From Escherichia coli (GTDB taxonomy: Bacteria > Pseudomonadota > Gammaproteobacteria > Enterobacterales > Enterobacteriaceae): a stretch of 64,000 nucleotides of DNA. The stretch lies in assembly GCF_030384885.1 (NCBI RefSeq), contig NZ_CP128613.1; one strand, given 5' to 3'. The notes under the pieces were generated by a model. The model searched no databases and had not been told where the DNA came from. It was given only the letters and a program-made list of their open reading frames with translations. Below are positions 21,797-39,539 of this stretch, piece after piece; position 1 is the first letter of the stretch, and each line of letters begins with the position of its first letter. The translations under genes were made by a program, and so were the position numbers.

Positions 21797-21894
21797 AATT
21801 CTGTTTATCAACACGTCATGTTCTGACCTGTCGATGTCATCTGTATCAAGCTTACTTGTCGATGTCTCTTCCGCCAAAACATCTTCGGCGTTGT

Positions 21895-33965: not shown

Positions 33966-34865
33966 CACTTTATCGAAATGGCCATCCATTCTTGCGCGGA
34001 TGGCCTCTGCCAGCTGCTCATAGCGGCTGCGCAGCGGTGAGCCCGGACGATAAACCAGGCCAATAGTGCGGCGTGGTTCCGGCTTAATACACGGCAAATA
34101 AACAACCCCATCGCGTTTGCGCTCCGGCGGCACAGCCAGTGCAGGCAGTAAAGTGATCCCGCTACCTGCCGCCACCATGTTGCGCAGAGTTTCCAGGCTG
34201 GTCGCGCGGAAGTGTGTATCTTCATCCGCCCCGGCTTCAAAGCAGAAACCCATTGCCTGATCGCGCAAACAGTGACCATCTTCCAGCATCAGCAGTTTTT
34301 CCCCTGCCAGATCGGCCATTGGTACGCATTCGCGGTTCGCCCACGGGTGATCTTCATAGATAGCCAGCAACATTGGCTCATCAAACAACGGCACTTCAAT
34401 GAATGCTTCGCTCTCTTTCACCAACGCGAGGATCACGCAATCGAGTTTGCCACTGTCCAGTTGCGCCAGTAACTGGTGGGTCTGTGCTTCATGCAGATAC
34501 ATTTCCAGCTTTGGAAAGGTCTGGTGCAGCATCGGGATAATATGTGGTAGCAGGTACGGTCCGACCGTGGGAATCAAACCAATATGCAGCGGCCCGGACA
34601 TTGTCTCGCCCTGCTGGCTTGCCATCTCTTTAAGGACTTTCACCTCACGCAGCACGGTACGCGCCTGATCCACCAGCAGCATTCCCGCCTGGGTGAATAA
34701 CACTTTACGGCTGGTCCGCTCCAGCAACATCACGCCCAGCTCATCTTCCAGCTTACGAATTTGCCCGCTAAGCGTCGGCTGGCTAACGTGGCAGGAATCT
34801 GCCGCACGCCGAAAATGACGGTGTTCAGCCAATGCCACCAGGTACTCAAGATCACGAATATTCAT
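33948..34865 (-). CDS. oxyR: LysR-family peroxide-sensing transcriptional regulator
   Basis: 305-aa product starting [40 protein letters not shown]; 3' end overlaps the sthA 3' end by 18 nt (convergent). Confidence 0.95.
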
Positions 34866-34960
34866 TATCCATCCTCCATCGCCACGATAGTTCATGGCGA
34901 TAGGTAGAATAGCAATGAACGATTATCCCTATCAAGCATTCTGACTGATAATTGCTCACA

Positions 34961-35073
34961 GAAACGGAGCGGCACCTCTTTTAACCCTTGAAGTCACTGC
35001 CCGTTTCGAGAGTTTCTCAACTCGAATAACTAAAGCCAACGTGAACTTTTGCGGATCTCCAGGATCCGCTTTT
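34961..35073 (+). ncRNA. oxyS: OxyS small regulatory RNA
   Basis: Reads GAAACGGAGCGGCACCTCTTTTAACCCTTGAAGTCACTGCCCGTTTCGAGAGTTTCTCAACTCG...GCGGATCTCCAGGATCCGCTTTTTTTT, matching OxyS including its terminal hairpin and U-run; divergent from oxyR. The 3' end is approximate. Confidence 0.88.
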
Positions 35074-35116
35074 TTTTATTCTACAGGCCCACAGCAAGAG
35101 AGCCTGATAGTAACAG

Positions 35117-36400
35117 TTACTCAATCCGATCTTTGACAATAAAGAAGTAACACAGCGCCCCGGTGAACGTCACACAGGCCGCGATAACCAGCGCCAGATT
35201 AAACGAGTGCGTGGTATCCACTACCCAACCGGTTACGATCGGAGCAAAGGAAGCAAAAACAAAACTGCCAAAGTTTTGAATCCCGGCGATGGAAGCCACT
35301 TTTGTTTCTGACACCATCACCTGCACCAGTCCCCATGCAGATGTTCCCGCGAAATGCACGCAGAACAGCGCCATTGAGATAAACGCTACAGCCTGGGCTG
35401 GCGAGGAGGATTGCACTACCAGCAACGTGCCTAATGCCGACATCATCAAACCGCAGACAATAGCCGTTTTACGCGTCTTCGCCAGGTCGTAGCCTTTTTT
35501 CGCCAGCCGATCGACAACAATACCGTTAACCCACATCCCGACCGCCGCCGCGAGGAAAGGAATCGCCGCCACCCAACCGGTTTTCGCCAGACTGAAGCCT
35601 TGCTCGGCTTGTAAATAACCGGGTAACCACGCGATGTAGAGCCAACCGGTATAATTGACGCCAGAGAAACCTAAAATCATCCCCCAGGTTGTCCGATGCT
35701 TAAACAGCGCCAGCCACTCGCTAAATTGTAATTGTGGACGCGGTTTAACCGGCGCGGAGAGATAGGTCCGTTCTTCGTCGGTCAGGACAAACTGCGCCCG
35801 GTTGCGATACCACGCGTACCAACAGATCCCAACCAGAATCCCCGCCACGCCGATGATGACGAACATTGCCCGCCAGCCCCATGCCAGCTGCATCAATACA
35901 AGAGCAGGAGGCGCAATAGCCTGACCGATAACGGTAGATGAGTTAAAAATCCCCAGCGCCGTGCCGCGTTCTTTTTGCGCATACCAGTCGGTGATCGACT
36001 TTACTCCCGCAGGCATAAATGGCGCTTCGCCAATACCCAGACCGATACGCATTAAAATAAAGTGGCTAAAAGAATTAACCATTCCTGTTAATGCCTGCAT
36101 TAATGACCAGAATATTAAGCCTGCGCCTAAAACTATTCGTGGGCCAAAGCGGTCTAGCAAAATACCGGAAGGGAGTTGTGAAAAACCATAAGACAGAGAA
36201 AATGCAGAAAGCAAAACGCCAAATTCTGTCGCCGATAATCCTAACTCGCCACGAATCGCTTCGCCTGCCACGCTCAATGACGAACGGTCGAGGAAATTAA
36301 CGATCCCCGCCATAAATAATAAAACCAGCGTTACTGTCTGAATACGACGAATCCGTTGCGGTTTATTACCCGCAACACTGGTTGACACATCAACGTCCAT
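35117..36400 (-). CDS. MFS transporter, anion:cation symporter (ACS) family, sugar-acid (hexuronate/aldonate) type
   Basis: 427-aa polytopic membrane protein with N-terminal ...LLFMAGIVNFLDRSSLSVAG... typical of DgoT/ExuT/GudP-like transporters; 66 nt downstream of the dehydratase gene on the same strand. Not present at this position in K-12 as I recall it. Confidence 0.8.
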   Translation of the reverse strand: MDVDVSTSVAGNKPQRIRRIQTVTLVLLFMAGIVNFLDRSSLSVAGEAIRGELGLSATEFGVLLSAFSLSYGFSQLPSGILLDRFGPRIVLGAGLIFWSLMQALTGMVNSFSHFILMRIGLGIGEAPFMPAGVKSITDWYAQKERGTALGIFNSSTVIGQAIAPPALVLMQLAWGWRAMFVIIGVAGILVGICWYAWYRNRAQFVLTDEERTYLSAPVKPRPQLQFSEWLALFKHRTTWGMILGFSGVNYTGWLYIAWLPGYLQAEQGFSLAKTGWVAAIPFLAAAVGMWVNGIVVDRLAKKGYDLAKTRKTAIVCGLMMSALGTLLVVQSSSPAQAVAFISMALFCVHFAGTSAWGLVQVMVSETKVASIAGIQNFGSFVFASFAPIVTGWVVDTTHSFNLALVIAACVTFTGALCYFFIVKDRIE

Positions 36401-36466
36401 TTTTAGCTCCTTGAGCGGAATTAATCGATTTGCTGACTATTCAGAAAATAATTAAGCGAACCGTTA

Positions 36467-37681
36467 TTACCAGTTCCACAATGTGCCATCTTCCAGTCGT
36501 GCGACGGGGAGATACGCCGGGTCATACGGATATTTCGCCGCCAGTTTCTCATCGAAAGAAATACCCAGCCCCGGTTCATCGCCTGGGTGCATATAACCTT
36601 CATCGAAGCGCCAGCTGTGCGGGAAGACTTCAAGCATTTGTTCGGAATAGCCCATGTACTCCTGAACACCAAAGTTTGGCACCCAGAGGTCAAAATGCAG
36701 CGCCGCCGCATGACAAACAGGCGATAAATCTGAAGGGCCATGCGAACCGGTACGTACCTGATAAAGCGATGCAAAATCGGCAATCCGTCGCATCCCGGTA
36801 ATGCCGCCTGCATGGGTAATCGTCGTGCGAATATAGTCAATCAGCTGCTCTTCGATTAACTGCTTGCAGTCCCAGATACTGTTAAACACTTCACCGACCG
36901 CAATCGGCGTCACAGTATGCTGGCGAATCAGACGAAAACATTCCTGGTTCTCGGCAGGCGTCGGATCTTCCATCCAGAACAGGCGGTAATCCTCTATGCT
37001 CTTCCCAAAGCGTGCCGCTTCGATAGGAGTCAGGCGATGGTGCATGTCATGCAACAGATGTTCGTTAAAACCGAACTTATTACGCACCGCTTCAAATAAC
37101 TTCGGTGTAAAATCGAGATACTTTTCTGAAGACCACAAATGCTCTTCCGGCCACAGGCCTTTGGTTGCCGGTTCATACGCCAGTCCTTTGCCCTTCGCCA
37201 GGCCATAAGTGGTTTGCATACCCGGTACACCGCACTGCACACGAATCGCCTTAAAGCCCATCTGCTGGTGCTTTGCATAGTCTTCAAGGACTTCATCAAT
37301 CGTGCGCCCGGTGGTGTGGCAATAAACCATCACGCCTTCACGAGAAGCCCCACCAAGCAGTTGATACAATGGCATATTTGCCGCTTTGGCTTTGATATCC
37401 CACAACGCCATATCAATGGCAGAAATGGCCGACATCGTGACGGGGCCACGTCGCCAGTAAGCACCTTTATAAAAGAATTGCCAGATATCTTCAATACGGC
37501 TGGCATCGCGGCCAATTAATTGTGGACAAAGATGATCTTTCAGATAAGAAGCGACCGACAATTCGCGACCATTTAATGTGGCATCTCCCAATCCACAAAG
37601 TCCGCTTGCAGTGGTTATTTTAAGCGTAACGAAATTACGTCCTGGGCAAGTAACAAAAACATCTGCAGCAATAATTTTCAT
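36467..37681 (-). CDS. Enolase-superfamily dehydratase, RspA / D-mannonate dehydratase (ManD)-like
   Basis: 404-aa product from [43 protein letters not shown]..., recognised as a close relative of starvation-sensing protein RspA; AGGAG Shine-Dalgarno 8 nt before the ATG at 37681. The ORF-track extension to 37741 is rejected. Confidence 0.82.
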
Positions 37682-38165
37682 TATTGCAATCTCCTGTGTT
37701 GTAAATAGACGCTTCAAACTTAATTTTACGCCTACTACCATACAAGAGAGAAAGAGCGATTATTCAACCGTGATCACATTAAAAATAAAAATTTCCGCCG
37801 AGGAGCCCCCCCCCCTCAAAAACCACCTGAATAATTAACCATCATCGTTAAAACAACACGTTAAATAATCACATAACAAACTCCATTAATCATTAAAAAT
37901 GAGCGCAGCAATAGAAATGAATTATATTCAATTAATTAAAATATGTATTGATTGATGTATTGAAAATATGATTTTCATGGGGAGAGTGAAGGTAAAGAAG
38001 ACGCAAGAATAAAAAGGAATATGACAAATAATAGTTCTGGTTGGGCGTTAAATTTAAGGTCACCAGAATGCTGACAAATTTCTGCCTGAGGCAGTCCGCC
38101 TACGTAGTGTCGCTACTTTATAGGCGTGGTAAGCTCCCCATTTTCAGGGGAGCAATATAAACCAA

Positions 38166-39539
38166 TTACCCCAACCGCGCCTGCGCAAAAGCAATCGCCT
38201 GCGCCACCTGCTGCGGTGAGACGCCGCCTTTTGCCGCACGCTTGTCGAGGCACGATTGCAGCGACAGAATCGGATAGACATCTTCGCCAATCACCTGACT
38301 GAATTTCTGCAACTCACTGAGCGGCAGTTCTTCCAGCGGTTTGCCCTGACGAATGGCTTCCACCACCGCTTCACCCACAATATGATGCGCCTCGCGGAAA
38401 GGTACGCCTTTCGCCACCAGGTAATCCGCCAGTTCAGTGGCGTTGGCGTAACCCTGCTGAGCCGCTTCCTGGCAACGCGGACGTTTCACCTGAATCCCGT
38501 CCAGCACCAGCGCCGCCATATGCAGGCAGTCCAGCCAGGTATCGAGCGCGTCGAACAGACCTTCTTTATCTTCCTGCATATCTTTGTTATAGGCCAGCGG
38601 CAGACCTTTCAGCGTCATCATCATGCCGGTCAACGCGCCCTGAACACGACCGCATTTACCCCGAATCAGCTCCAGCGCATCCGGGTTTTTCTTCTGCGGC
38701 ATTAATGATGAACCGGAAGTAACACGATCAGAAAGCTCCACAAAACCCGCTTCGCCGGTGTTAAAGAAAATCAGATCTTCGGCAAAACGCGACAAATGCA
38801 CCATACCGATAGCGGCGGCAGAAAGCAGTTCCAGCACGTGGTCGCGGTCAGAAACGCTGTCGAGACTGTTACGGGTCGCCGAGGCAAAGCCCAGCCAGCC
38901 TGCTAACTGTTCACGGTCGATTTCATAGGCCGTTCCCGCCAGTGCGCCACAGCCTAACGGGCTGACATCCAGACGCTTAAGCGCATCCTGCAAACGGCTT
39001 TCATCACGCGCCAGCATCTCAACATAGGCCAGGCACCAGTGCGCAAACGTCACCGGCTGGGCGCGTTGCAGGTGAGTGTAACCAGGCATTACCGCGTCCT
39101 GATTATTCTGCGCGGTCTCGACCAGAGCGGATTGTAACTGTCGGTTAGCCGTCAGCAACTCGCTAACGGTATCCTTGCACCACAGTTTCAGGTCAGTCGC
39201 TACCTGATCATTACGGCTACGCCCGGTATGCAATTTTTTGCCTAACTGGCCCACTTTGTCGATCAGTTTGCCTTCCACCCAGCTATGGATATCTTCGGCG
39301 TCGCTTTCAAGAATTTGTTGTGGCCTGGCGCGAACATCTTCCAGCAGCACATTGAGCGCCTCTTCCAGTTGCACCTGTTCTTCTGCGGTTAACACGCCTA
39401 CCGTTACCAGCGCTTTGGACCAGGCCACAGAGCCAACAATATCCTGCTCCGCCAGACGGTAATCAAAGCGCAGTGAGTCGTTGAATTGTTTAAACCGTTG
39501 ATCTGCTGCCTGGGTAAAACGCCCGCCCCAAAGTGCCAT
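38166..39539 (-). CDS. argH: Argininosuccinate lyase
   Basis: 457-aa product [42 protein letters not shown]... Confidence 0.96.

What the first reader, a model, noticed from the sequence alone, without database searches (positions are those of the whole stretch)
37806..37815. 10-nt C/G homopolymer in the putative promoter region of the accessory dehydratase-transporter operon
A run of exactly 10 C (G10 on the coding strand of the operon) sits about 125-135 bp upstream of the dehydratase ATG, inside an AT-rich stretch. Tracts this long are uncommon in E. coli intergenic DNA and are the classic substrate for slipped-strand mispairing; a length change could alter promoter spacing or a regulator site, giving heritable on/off switching. 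It could equally be a homopolymer sequencing or assembly artefact.
Basis: seen in the sequence. Interest (0 to 1): 0.5.

Follow-up and report, generated by a model that had tools for sequence, protein, structure and literature searches.

The report
Young unstable poly-C run upstream of manD
The ten-C run is real and its recorded length differs between near-identical strains, but it is a recent quirk of one small E. coli lineage lying upstream of the manD promoter inferred by homology, so it is more likely an ordinary slippery repeat than a genetic on/off switch.

Summary
The C10 run (G10 on the gene strand) is at 37806-37815, 125-134 nt upstream of the ManD start codon. It is the only homopolymer of 9 or more in the window, and no G/C run of 8 or more occurs in 566 kb of related enterobacterial DNA. 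It lies in a two-gene islet (manD plus an MFS transporter) between argH and oxyS/oxyR, present in about a third of complete E. coli genomes.

Every other sampled haplotype, all 17 metagenome contigs and E. whittamii carry an interrupted sequence here, 11 nt in all but one (A6CAC3 or A6TAC3). The pure C run is confined to one rare lineage, and intermediates exist (A7C4, A5C6, A+C9, A+C10). Among genomes with identical flanks the run is C8, C9 or C10. It is the only indel in 49.9 kb between the window and its closest complete genome.

The promoter was mapped by homology to the experimentally studied rspA promoter and to 80 orthologous loci. This puts the run 27 nt upstream of a conserved CRP-like site, about -95 to -104 from the inferred start, in the most variable part of the region.

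Verdict: a real, slippage-prone, lineage-specific repeat. A promoter-spacing on/off switch is not supported; a modest tuning effect is not excluded.

The parts
37806..37815 (-). The homopolymer: C10 on the + strand, G10 on the manD coding strand. It replaces the common 11-nt AAAAAA(C/T)ACCC.
   Evidence: sequence and run statistics; alleles in other genomes.
37763..37778 (-). CRP-like site TGTGATCACGGTTGAA. The left half-site is perfect and the right half-site is poor. Its centre is about -60 from the inferred start, and 27 nt separate it from the run.
   Evidence: TGTGA lies at a fixed distance (N24/25) from the ATACTTGTATGGTA-type box in 60 of 80 rspA/manD orthologous loci, and the same spacing holds here. 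CRP binding itself is inferred, not tested.
37740..37749 (-). Degenerate RspR box TCTCTTGTAT (ATACTTGTAT in most orthologues). It overlaps the inferred -35 hexamer TTGTAT (37745..37740).
   Evidence: 64 of 80 loci have ATAC; this islet has TCTC. The RspR box ATACnnGTAT was defined by DNase I footprinting in PMC8249747.
37717..37722 (-). Inferred -10 hexamer TAAGTT, 17 nt after TTGTAT. The inferred transcription start is about 37710-37711.
   Evidence: Colinearity with K-12 rspA: 65 versus 66 nt from the CTTGTATGG box to the ATG. The rspA start was mapped about 30 nt upstream of its ATG by primer extension (PMC8249747). This is inference. The consensus promoter scan found nothing in the region.
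36467..37681 (-). manD, D-mannonate dehydratase of the enolase superfamily, 404 aa, intact.
   Evidence: RefSeq annotation of near-identical records. NCBIfam equivalog NF043051 scores 731 bits against a cut-off of 550.
35117..36400 (-). MFS transporter, 427 aa, intact. It resembles the D-galactonate transporter subfamily but scores below the cut-off. It is the second gene of the islet.
37682..38165 (-). The 484-nt argH-manD intergenic region that holds the run. Its distal part is very AT-rich (13-35% G+C) and carries a REP-like element next to argH.
38166..39539 (-). argH, the upstream flanking core gene (context).
34961..35070 (+). oxyS sRNA, the downstream boundary of the islet (context).
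   Evidence: Rfam RF00035, 139.5 bits.

Best explanation
The C10 run is a real, evolutionarily young mononucleotide repeat private to one small E. coli lineage.

Origin (inferred). It arose from the interrupted spacer AAAAAA(C/T)ACCC, which every other sampled carrier of the manD-MFS islet has (11 nt in all but one). The likely route is run-extending changes at the A/C boundary, by transient-misalignment substitutions and/or paired slippage. Surviving intermediates are A7C4, A5C6 and A+C10.

Instability (shown as recorded differences; read-level proof is missing). Once pure and 9-10 nt long, the run became prone to replication slippage. Near-identical genomes now record C8, C9, C10, A+C9 and A+C10.

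Position (inferred by homology). The run lies in weakly constrained spacer DNA, 27 nt upstream of the CRP-like site of an rspA-type promoter: CRP-like site at about -60, -35 TTGTAT, -10 TAAGTT, start about 30 nt before the ATG. That places it at about -95 to -104.

Consequence. Length changes cannot alter the -35/-10 spacing or the spacing between the CRP-like site and the promoter. The run is most likely a neutral or nearly neutral hypermutable microsatellite that at most fine-tunes expression. It is not a programmed on/off switch.
For: Run and rarity.

Distribution: the islet is in 1864 of 5426 complete E. coli genomes. Only two of them match the 221 nt around the run at 99% or more over full length, and those carry C8 and A+C9. 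All 17 metagenome contigs, CFT073, the other complete genomes fetched and the other draft-assembly loci fetched carry interrupted alleles, 11 nt in all but one (12 nt in L024). Divergent haplotypes and E. whittamii have GGATATTTTTG-type sequences of the same 11-nt length. No match was found in GTDB species representatives.

Youth: outside the run, the poly-C clade differs from the core haplotype by one private SNP in 821 nt, yet by 7 substitutions plus 1 deletion inside 11 nt. Intermediates A5C6 and A7C4 sit on near-identical flanks.

Instability: six sequences with zero flank differences carry C10 four times, C9 once and C8 once. The sister haplotype carries A+C9 and A+C10. The run is the only indel in 49.9 kb between the window and strain 2013C-4282. 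Other runs, including a T8, do not differ.

Position: 60 of 80 orthologous loci share TGTGA-N24/25-ATACTTGTATGGTA (64 with ATAC at any captured spacing; 70 matched the looser pattern), and the window has the same spacing. The RspR box and the rspA start are experimental (PMC8249747). In the five orthologous loci read, the upstream gene ends, by my reading of the sequence, within roughly 20-130 nt of TGTGA, so their regulatory regions are short and show no resemblance to the DNA that holds the run here.

Constraint: over 31 unique haplotypes, -100 to -1 is nearly invariant, while the run and its flanks form the most variable cluster of the proximal 170 nt.
Against: No transcription start, expression data or read pile-ups exist for this lineage, so the promoter position rests on homology to a paralogue.

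DNA upstream of a class I CRP site can still contact RNA polymerase alpha-CTD or nucleoid proteins. Replacing a T6 tract by G10 and shifting the AT-rich upstream DNA by 1-3 bp could therefore change expression.

Seven changes concentrated in 11 nt against about one elsewhere could reflect selection rather than mutation bias.

Most alleles, including intermediates, keep a total length of 11. That could hint at a spacing constraint.

The length differences could be homopolymer sequencing errors.

Poly-C alleles on divergent haplotypes among the 1864 genomes would not necessarily have surfaced in my rankings.
Confidence: 0.58

Rival explanations
1. Functional contingency or rheostat element. Slippage in the G tract changes the helical phasing or bending between the AT-rich upstream DNA (or a factor bound there) and the CRP-RNA polymerase complex. 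Subpopulations would then express manD-MFS at different, heritable and reversible levels.
For: The tract is long enough to slip and its length differs among near-identical genomes. It lies within about 100 bp of the inferred start, on the promoter side of a 13-30% G+C block. Upstream homopolymers do modulate transcription in other bacteria, for example the Bordetella fim C-stretch and fimX C7 versus C8 with a 3.8-fold effect (PMC1891110).
Against: The tract lies outside the conserved promoter module and in its most variable neighbourhood. It is absent from all other sampled haplotypes of the same operon and from E. whittamii. C10 is modal (4 of 6), not a broad length distribution. The operon encodes a metabolic enzyme and a transporter, not a surface antigen.
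Confidence: 0.14
2. The tract is real but effectively stable (C10, and A+C10 in the sister haplotype). The C8, C9 and A+C9 records would be homopolymer miscalls of individual assemblies.
For: C10 recurs in four separate sequences with identical flanks (the window and three other assemblies). The A+C10 contig is reported from 7 samples. Each deviant length is seen once (L001, L112, L006). G/C homopolymers of about 10 nt are error-prone on all platforms (general knowledge, not tested here).
Against: No other homopolymer differs between the window and 2013C-4282 in 49.9 kb, although A7, T7 and T8 runs are present. Deviations occur in both haplotypes and in different assemblies.
Confidence: 0.2
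3. The sequence change matters, not the length. Replacing the T6/A6 tract by G/C was positively selected as a cis-regulatory mutation, for example by breaking an A-tract bend or blocking H-NS spread from the AT-rich upstream DNA into the promoter. This would raise manD-MFS expression in this lineage. Length wobble would be a by-product.
For: Seven substitutions fall in 11 nt against one private SNP in the other 810 nt. Two haplotypes that share no other derived SNP both carry near-pure C runs. The change extends a GC-rich block between 13-30% G+C DNA and the promoter.
Against: Run-purifying mutation bias explains the same pattern without selection, and other run-purified alleles (A7C4, A5C6) occur elsewhere. 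There are no expression data. The site tolerates many different sequences across haplotypes.
Confidence: 0.08

Closest known systems
Promoter homopolymers that give phase-variable or graded transcription, e.g. the Bordetella pertussis fim2/fim3/fimX 'C-stretch' (PMC1891110)
   Same: It is a G/C mononucleotide run of about 8-10 nt or more upstream of a gene, with length polymorphism between closely related isolates. Replication slippage is the presumed mechanism.
   Different: In Bordetella the C-stretch overlaps the functional promoter, is conserved across fim paralogues and species, and its length was shown to change transcript levels. Here the run lies about 35 bp upstream of the centre of the CRP-like site, outside the conserved module, and exists in one lineage only. 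No expression effect is known.
Neisseria meningitidis nspA promoter poly(A) tract (PMC6389960)
   Same: A promoter-region homopolymer whose length differs between lineages.
   Different: For nspA the 5A and 6A alleles were shown to set expression level. [quoted passage not shown] Here neither an expression effect nor switching has been measured, and the tract is longer and G/C.
E. coli K-12 rspAB promoter (RspR/YdfH-repressed; PMC8249747)
   Same: The manD promoter is colinear with it. Both have TGTGATC, then the same spacing to CTTGTATGGTAGT, then 65 versus 66 nt to the ATG. ManD is about 91% identical to RspA-type proteins.
   Different: The left half of the RspR box (ATAC) is TCTC in the islet. 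rspA has no homopolymer and no long AT-rich upstream region. The downstream gene here is an MFS transporter and not rspB.
Polymorphic mononucleotide microsatellites in bacterial intergenic DNA (general class)
   Same: A lineage-specific run whose length differs between strains, without demonstrated function.
   Different: It is unusually long for G/C in enterobacterial DNA: none of 8 or more in 630 kb examined. Its stepwise origin from an interrupted A/C sequence can be traced through surviving intermediates.

Membership tests
Slipped-strand contingency locus acting on a promoter | A repeat tract long and pure enough to be hypermutable | tested here: met
   An uninterrupted C10. It is the only run of 9 or more in 64 kb, and no G/C run of 8 or more occurs in 566 kb of related loci.
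Slipped-strand contingency locus acting on a promoter | Tract length differs between clonally related isolates | tested here: met
   C8, C9 and C10 (four times) on identical flanks, and A+C9 and A+C10 on the sister haplotype. The run is the only indel in 49.9 kb against 2013C-4282. Sequencing error is not excluded because no reads are available.
Slipped-strand contingency locus acting on a promoter | Tract lies within or between functional promoter or operator elements, so that length sets promoter geometry | tested here: not met
   The run is 27 nt upstream of the conserved CRP-like site and about -95 to -104 from the start inferred by homology to the mapped rspA promoter. The neighbourhood is the least conserved part of the proximal region. 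This is a comparative inference, not a mapped start.
Slipped-strand contingency locus acting on a promoter | The repeat is maintained at the locus across strains or species | tested here: not met
   Every allele sampled outside the run-purified variants (A7C4, A5C6 and the poly-C lineage) is interrupted: 17 of 17 metagenome contigs, CFT073 and the other complete genomes and draft-assembly loci fetched, and E. whittamii. Only 2 of 1864 complete genomes match the run region at 99% or more.
Slipped-strand contingency locus acting on a promoter | Reversible, high-frequency switching within a culture, with length-dependent expression | not testable with these tools
   This needs read pile-ups, colony sectoring or fragment analysis, and reporter fusions.
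rspA-type promoter (CRP-like site plus RspR operator) | TGTGA half-site at a fixed distance from the TTGTATGGTA box | tested here: met
   The window has the same 24-nt gap as 40 loci with the ATAC box (44 counting box variants); 20 more ATAC loci have 25.
rspA-type promoter (CRP-like site plus RspR operator) | Palindromic RspR box ATACnnGTAT | tested here: not met
   The window and E. whittamii have TCTCTTGTAT, so only the right half is kept. The box is defined in PMC8249747.
D-mannonate dehydratase ManD (enolase superfamily) | Full-length match above the curated equivalog cut-off | tested here: met
   NF043051 scores 731 bits against a cut-off of 550 over residues 1-404. RefSeq names it ManD. 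Enzyme activity was not tested.

The most novel reading that the evidence does not exclude
One E. coli lineage has recently evolved, from non-repetitive spacer DNA, a working G-tract rheostat. Slippage between G8 and G11 would re-phase or re-bend the AT-rich upstream DNA relative to the CRP-dependent manD promoter and produce heritable, reversible expression states of a sugar-acid uptake and dehydration operon. That would be an observed birth of a contingency locus in a species where homopolymer-based promoter switching is, to my knowledge, rarely reported.
Probability: 0.1. Interest if true: 0.55.

Novelty: new member of a known kind. Interest (0 to 1): 0.25.

Why it matters
If the run only wobbles in length without effect, it is a routine microsatellite. 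Its main practical use is as a caution for assembly and SNP/indel pipelines, and possibly as a fast-evolving marker within this lineage.

Its traceable origin is a modestly instructive natural example of how homopolymers are born by run-purifying mutation: A6CAC3, then A5C6, then A+C10, then C10, C9 and C8.

If length did tune manD-MFS expression, it would be an unusual case of slippage-based regulation of a metabolic operon in E. coli. It would be easy to test with a handful of reporter constructs.

Tried and rejected
1. The consensus sigma-70/terminator scan of 37600-38250 found no promoter. The inferred promoter (TTGTAT-17-TAAGTT) is too weak for its thresholds.

2. My first reading was a class II CRP promoter with TATGGT as -10, putting the run at -76 to -85. 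I dropped it after finding that the paralogous rspA start was mapped about 30 nt upstream of the ATG (PMC8249747). The colinear model puts the CRP-like site at about -60.

3. Rfam finds nothing at or near the run, even at E up to 1. Only OxyS scored significantly in 34000-39000; one other match, RAGATH-25 at 38739-38773, was at chance level (E = 0.86).

4. A pattern scan of GTDB species representatives gave 0 hits. The exact flanks are specific to E. coli and E. whittamii.

5. An 8-nt inverted repeat, ATTATTCA/TGAATAAT, brackets the run and the CRP-like site. The upstream arm is not conserved in E. whittamii or in divergent E. coli haplotypes, so I treat it as chance.

6. A second TGTGA at 37868-37872 has no recognisable second half-site, so I did not pursue it.

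7. The + strand ORF 37578-37838 (86 aa) covers the run. It is antisense to the manD start and promoter, and none of the 60 RefSeq records listed annotates any feature there, so I rejected it as a gene.

8. I could not retrieve the papers I recalled on ManD enzymology and physiology. Nothing in this report rests on them.

9. Repeated encoding-contig look-ups with different flanks returned the same representative contigs. The tract lengths of the roughly 35 'similar places not shown' remain unknown.

Full report
OBSERVATION. Window 37806-37815 is an uninterrupted C10, i.e. G10 on the minus, gene-coding strand, in the context CCGCCGAGGAG-C10-TCAAAAACC. It is the only homopolymer of 9 or more in the 64 kb. 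The next-longest G/C run is 6. About 0.11 C runs and 0.04 G runs of 10 or more are expected under independent bases. In 566 kb from 80 enterobacterial loci fetched later, the longest G/C run is 7.

LOCUS. The run lies in the 484-nt spacer between argH (38166-39539, minus) and a two-gene islet. The islet is manD (36467-37681, minus) plus an MFS transporter (35117-36400, minus). manD encodes a D-mannonate dehydratase of the enolase superfamily and scores 731 bits against a cut-off of 550 on the NCBIfam equivalog. Next come oxyS (34961-35070, Rfam 139.5 bits) and oxyR. The islet is accessory. The 221 nt around the run are found in 1864 of 5426 complete E. coli genomes. The identical ArgH protein also occurs in genomes where argH is followed directly by oxyR (L113, L116).

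WHAT OTHER GENOMES HAVE AT THIS SITE. I read the sequence between the conserved flanks CCGAGGAG and TCAAAAACC.
- CFT073, the other complete genomes fetched outside the run-purified alleles, the other draft-assembly loci fetched and all 17 metagenome contigs carry AAAAAACACCC or AAAAAATACCC. These are 11 nt; one contig (L024) has 12.
- More divergent E. coli haplotypes and Escherichia whittamii read GGATATTTTTG or GGATGTTTTTG on the gene strand, also 11 nt.
- A scan of one genome per GTDB species found the flanks nowhere else.
- Pure or nearly pure C runs occur only in sequences very close to the window. These are C10 (window, L109, L111, L117), C9 (L112), C8 (strain 2013C-4282, L001), A+C9 (strain 2020CK-00188, L006/L110) and A+C10 (L108, a contig reported from 7 samples).
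- Two further complete genomes carry partly purified alleles of unchanged length: A5C6 (L007) and A7C4 (L008).
- Among complete genomes, only two match the run region at 99% or more over full length. The exact ManD protein of this lineage is nevertheless indexed in about 175 blocks of draft assemblies. The lineage is therefore small but not a singleton.

A YOUNG AND UNSTABLE TRACT. I compared 821 nt around the run with the run itself masked.
- The window, L001, L109, L111, L112 and L117 are identical, yet they carry C10, C8, C10, C10, C9 and C10.
- This clade differs from the 'core' haplotype that carries A6CAC3 (L114, L124) or A5C6 (L007) by a single private SNP (37493). Inside the 11-nt site it differs by seven substitutions and one deletion.
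- The A+C9/A+C10 haplotype has three private SNPs of its own. It shares no derived SNP with the window clade apart from the C run.
- Independent point mutation cannot plausibly give seven changes in 11 nt against about one in 810.
- The intermediates, and the fact that A7C4, A5C6 and A+C10 keep a total of 11, point to stepwise run-extending events at the A/C boundary. These could be substitutions by transient misalignment, or paired slippage. This mechanism is an inference from the allele series. It was not tested.
- Over 49.9 kb the window and 2013C-4282 differ by about five SNPs outside the rrn operon, a diverged patch in the 5S-23S spacer, and exactly one indel: the 2-nt difference in this run. 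A7, T7 and T8 runs in the same stretch are identical.
- The run is therefore either truly more mutable than anything around it, or uniquely hard to sequence. Without reads I cannot separate the two.

WHERE THE PROMOTER IS. The consensus scan found no sigma-70 promoter, so I used comparative evidence.
- ManD is about 91-93% identical to RspA-type dehydratases across Enterobacterales.
- In 60 of the 80 loci fetched, the upstream region contains TGTGA-N24/25-ATACTTGTATGGTA, about 60-75 nt before the ATG. 64 loci have the ATAC form of the box at any captured spacing, and 70 matched the looser pattern used.
- For E. coli K-12 rspA this region has been studied experimentally. RspR (YdfH) protects 31 bp centred on the palindrome ATACnnGTAT, and primer extension places the start about 30 bp upstream of the ATG (PMC8249747).
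- The window is colinear with rspA. Both have TGTGATC, 32 nt from the start of TGTGA to CTTGTATGGTAGT, then 65 versus 66 nt to the ATG.
- This gives an inferred promoter: TTGTAT (37745..37740), 17 nt, TAAGTT (37722..37717), start near 37711, and the CRP-like site (37778..37763) centred near -60, the usual class I position. CRP binding is my inference from the half-site and its position.
- On this map the run lies 27 nt upstream of the CRP-like site, at about -95 to -104.
- In the five orthologous loci I read, the upstream gene appears to end within roughly 20-130 nt of TGTGA, judged from the sequence. Their regulatory regions are therefore short, and they show no resemblance to the DNA that holds the run here.
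- Across 31 unique E. coli and E. whittamii haplotypes, positions -100 to -1 are almost invariant. The run and its flanks (-137 to -113) form the most variable cluster of the proximal 170 nt.

INTERPRETATION. The other half, a switch through promoter spacing or an operator, does not fit for three reasons.
- The run lies outside the -35/-10 spacer and outside the interval between the CRP-like site and the promoter.
- It occupies the least constrained DNA of the region.
- It is not maintained at this locus in any other lineage or in the sister species.
My best explanation (confidence about 0.58) is a recently born, neutral or nearly neutral hypermutable microsatellite. Three weaker alternatives remain.
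- A rheostat-like effect, through re-phasing or re-bending of the AT-rich upstream DNA relative to the CRP-polymerase complex (0.14).
- A stable C10 whose deviating lengths are miscalls (0.20).
- Selection on the replacement of the T/A tract by G/C, with length wobble as a by-product (0.08).
A pure assembly artefact is excluded for the existence of the run. It recurs with identical flanks in three other assemblies.

COMPARISON WITH KNOWN SYSTEMS. Mechanistically the nearest models are promoter homopolymers such as the Bordetella fim 'C-stretch'. There the tract overlaps the functional promoter, is conserved among paralogues and species, and changes transcript level with length, for example fimX C7 versus C8 (PMC1891110). 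This run shares the repeat type and the inter-strain length polymorphism. It fails two defining features that I could test, position within promoter elements and maintenance across strains. The decisive feature, reversible length-dependent expression, cannot be tested here. The meningococcal nspA poly(A) tract is a useful contrast. Its length alleles set expression level, yet that paper has a section titled 'No evidence for phase variation' (PMC6389960). I therefore file the run as a new instance of an ordinary class, a polymorphic intergenic mononucleotide repeat, and not as a member of the contingency-locus family.

LIMITS.
- There are no reads, no start mapping and no expression data.
- The promoter map is by homology to a paralogue.
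- Only eight sequences of the poly-C lineage could be read, because the contig look-up collapses similar places.
- Poly-C alleles on divergent haplotypes among the 1864 complete genomes would not necessarily have ranked high enough to be seen.
- The papers I recalled on ManD enzymology and physiology could not be retrieved, and nothing here depends on them.

Noticed in passing
window 37740-37749 (minus strand): The manD promoter of the E. coli/E. whittamii islet keeps the CRP-like site and the TTGTATGGTA box of rspA-type promoters. The left half of the RspR operator is TCTC, whereas 64 of 80 orthologous loci have ATAC (box defined in PMC8249747). The islet may therefore have escaped RspR repression.
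   Followed up: partly
window about 38085-38110: The REP-like element just downstream of argH is 13 nt shorter in the window lineage than in CFT073 and most other haplotypes: GCCTGAGGCAG|TCCGCC versus GCCTGATGCGGCGTAAACGCCTTATCCGCC.
   Followed up: no
L119 and L122; hits H41-H43; homology to the window ends near 37884: A subset of E. coli genomes (roughly 130 by the ranking) has an FGGY-family kinase gene, not argH, immediately upstream of manD. The distal half of the intergenic region is replaced. Their tract site reads GGATATTTTTG.
   Followed up: partly
L113 and L116 versus window 35117-38165: Genomes encoding the identical ArgH protein lack the manD-MFS islet altogether, with argH followed directly by oxyR. 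Presence and absence of the islet are therefore polymorphic even among close argH alleles.
   Followed up: no
window 21806-21869: The 5S-23S spacer of the rrn operon in the window differs in a dense patch from the otherwise near-identical strain 2013C-4282. This is probably exchange between rrn operon copies.
   Followed up: no
window 37771-37774: A Dam site (GATC) lies inside the CRP-like half-site TGTGATCAC. The TGTGATC motif is shared by the six loci aligned. It is a single site, so there is no resemblance to pap/agn43-type methylation switches.
   Followed up: no
window 35070-35077: The second-longest homopolymer of the window, T8, begins at the 3' end of oxyS and is probably its terminator tail. 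It is identical in 2013C-4282.
   Followed up: no
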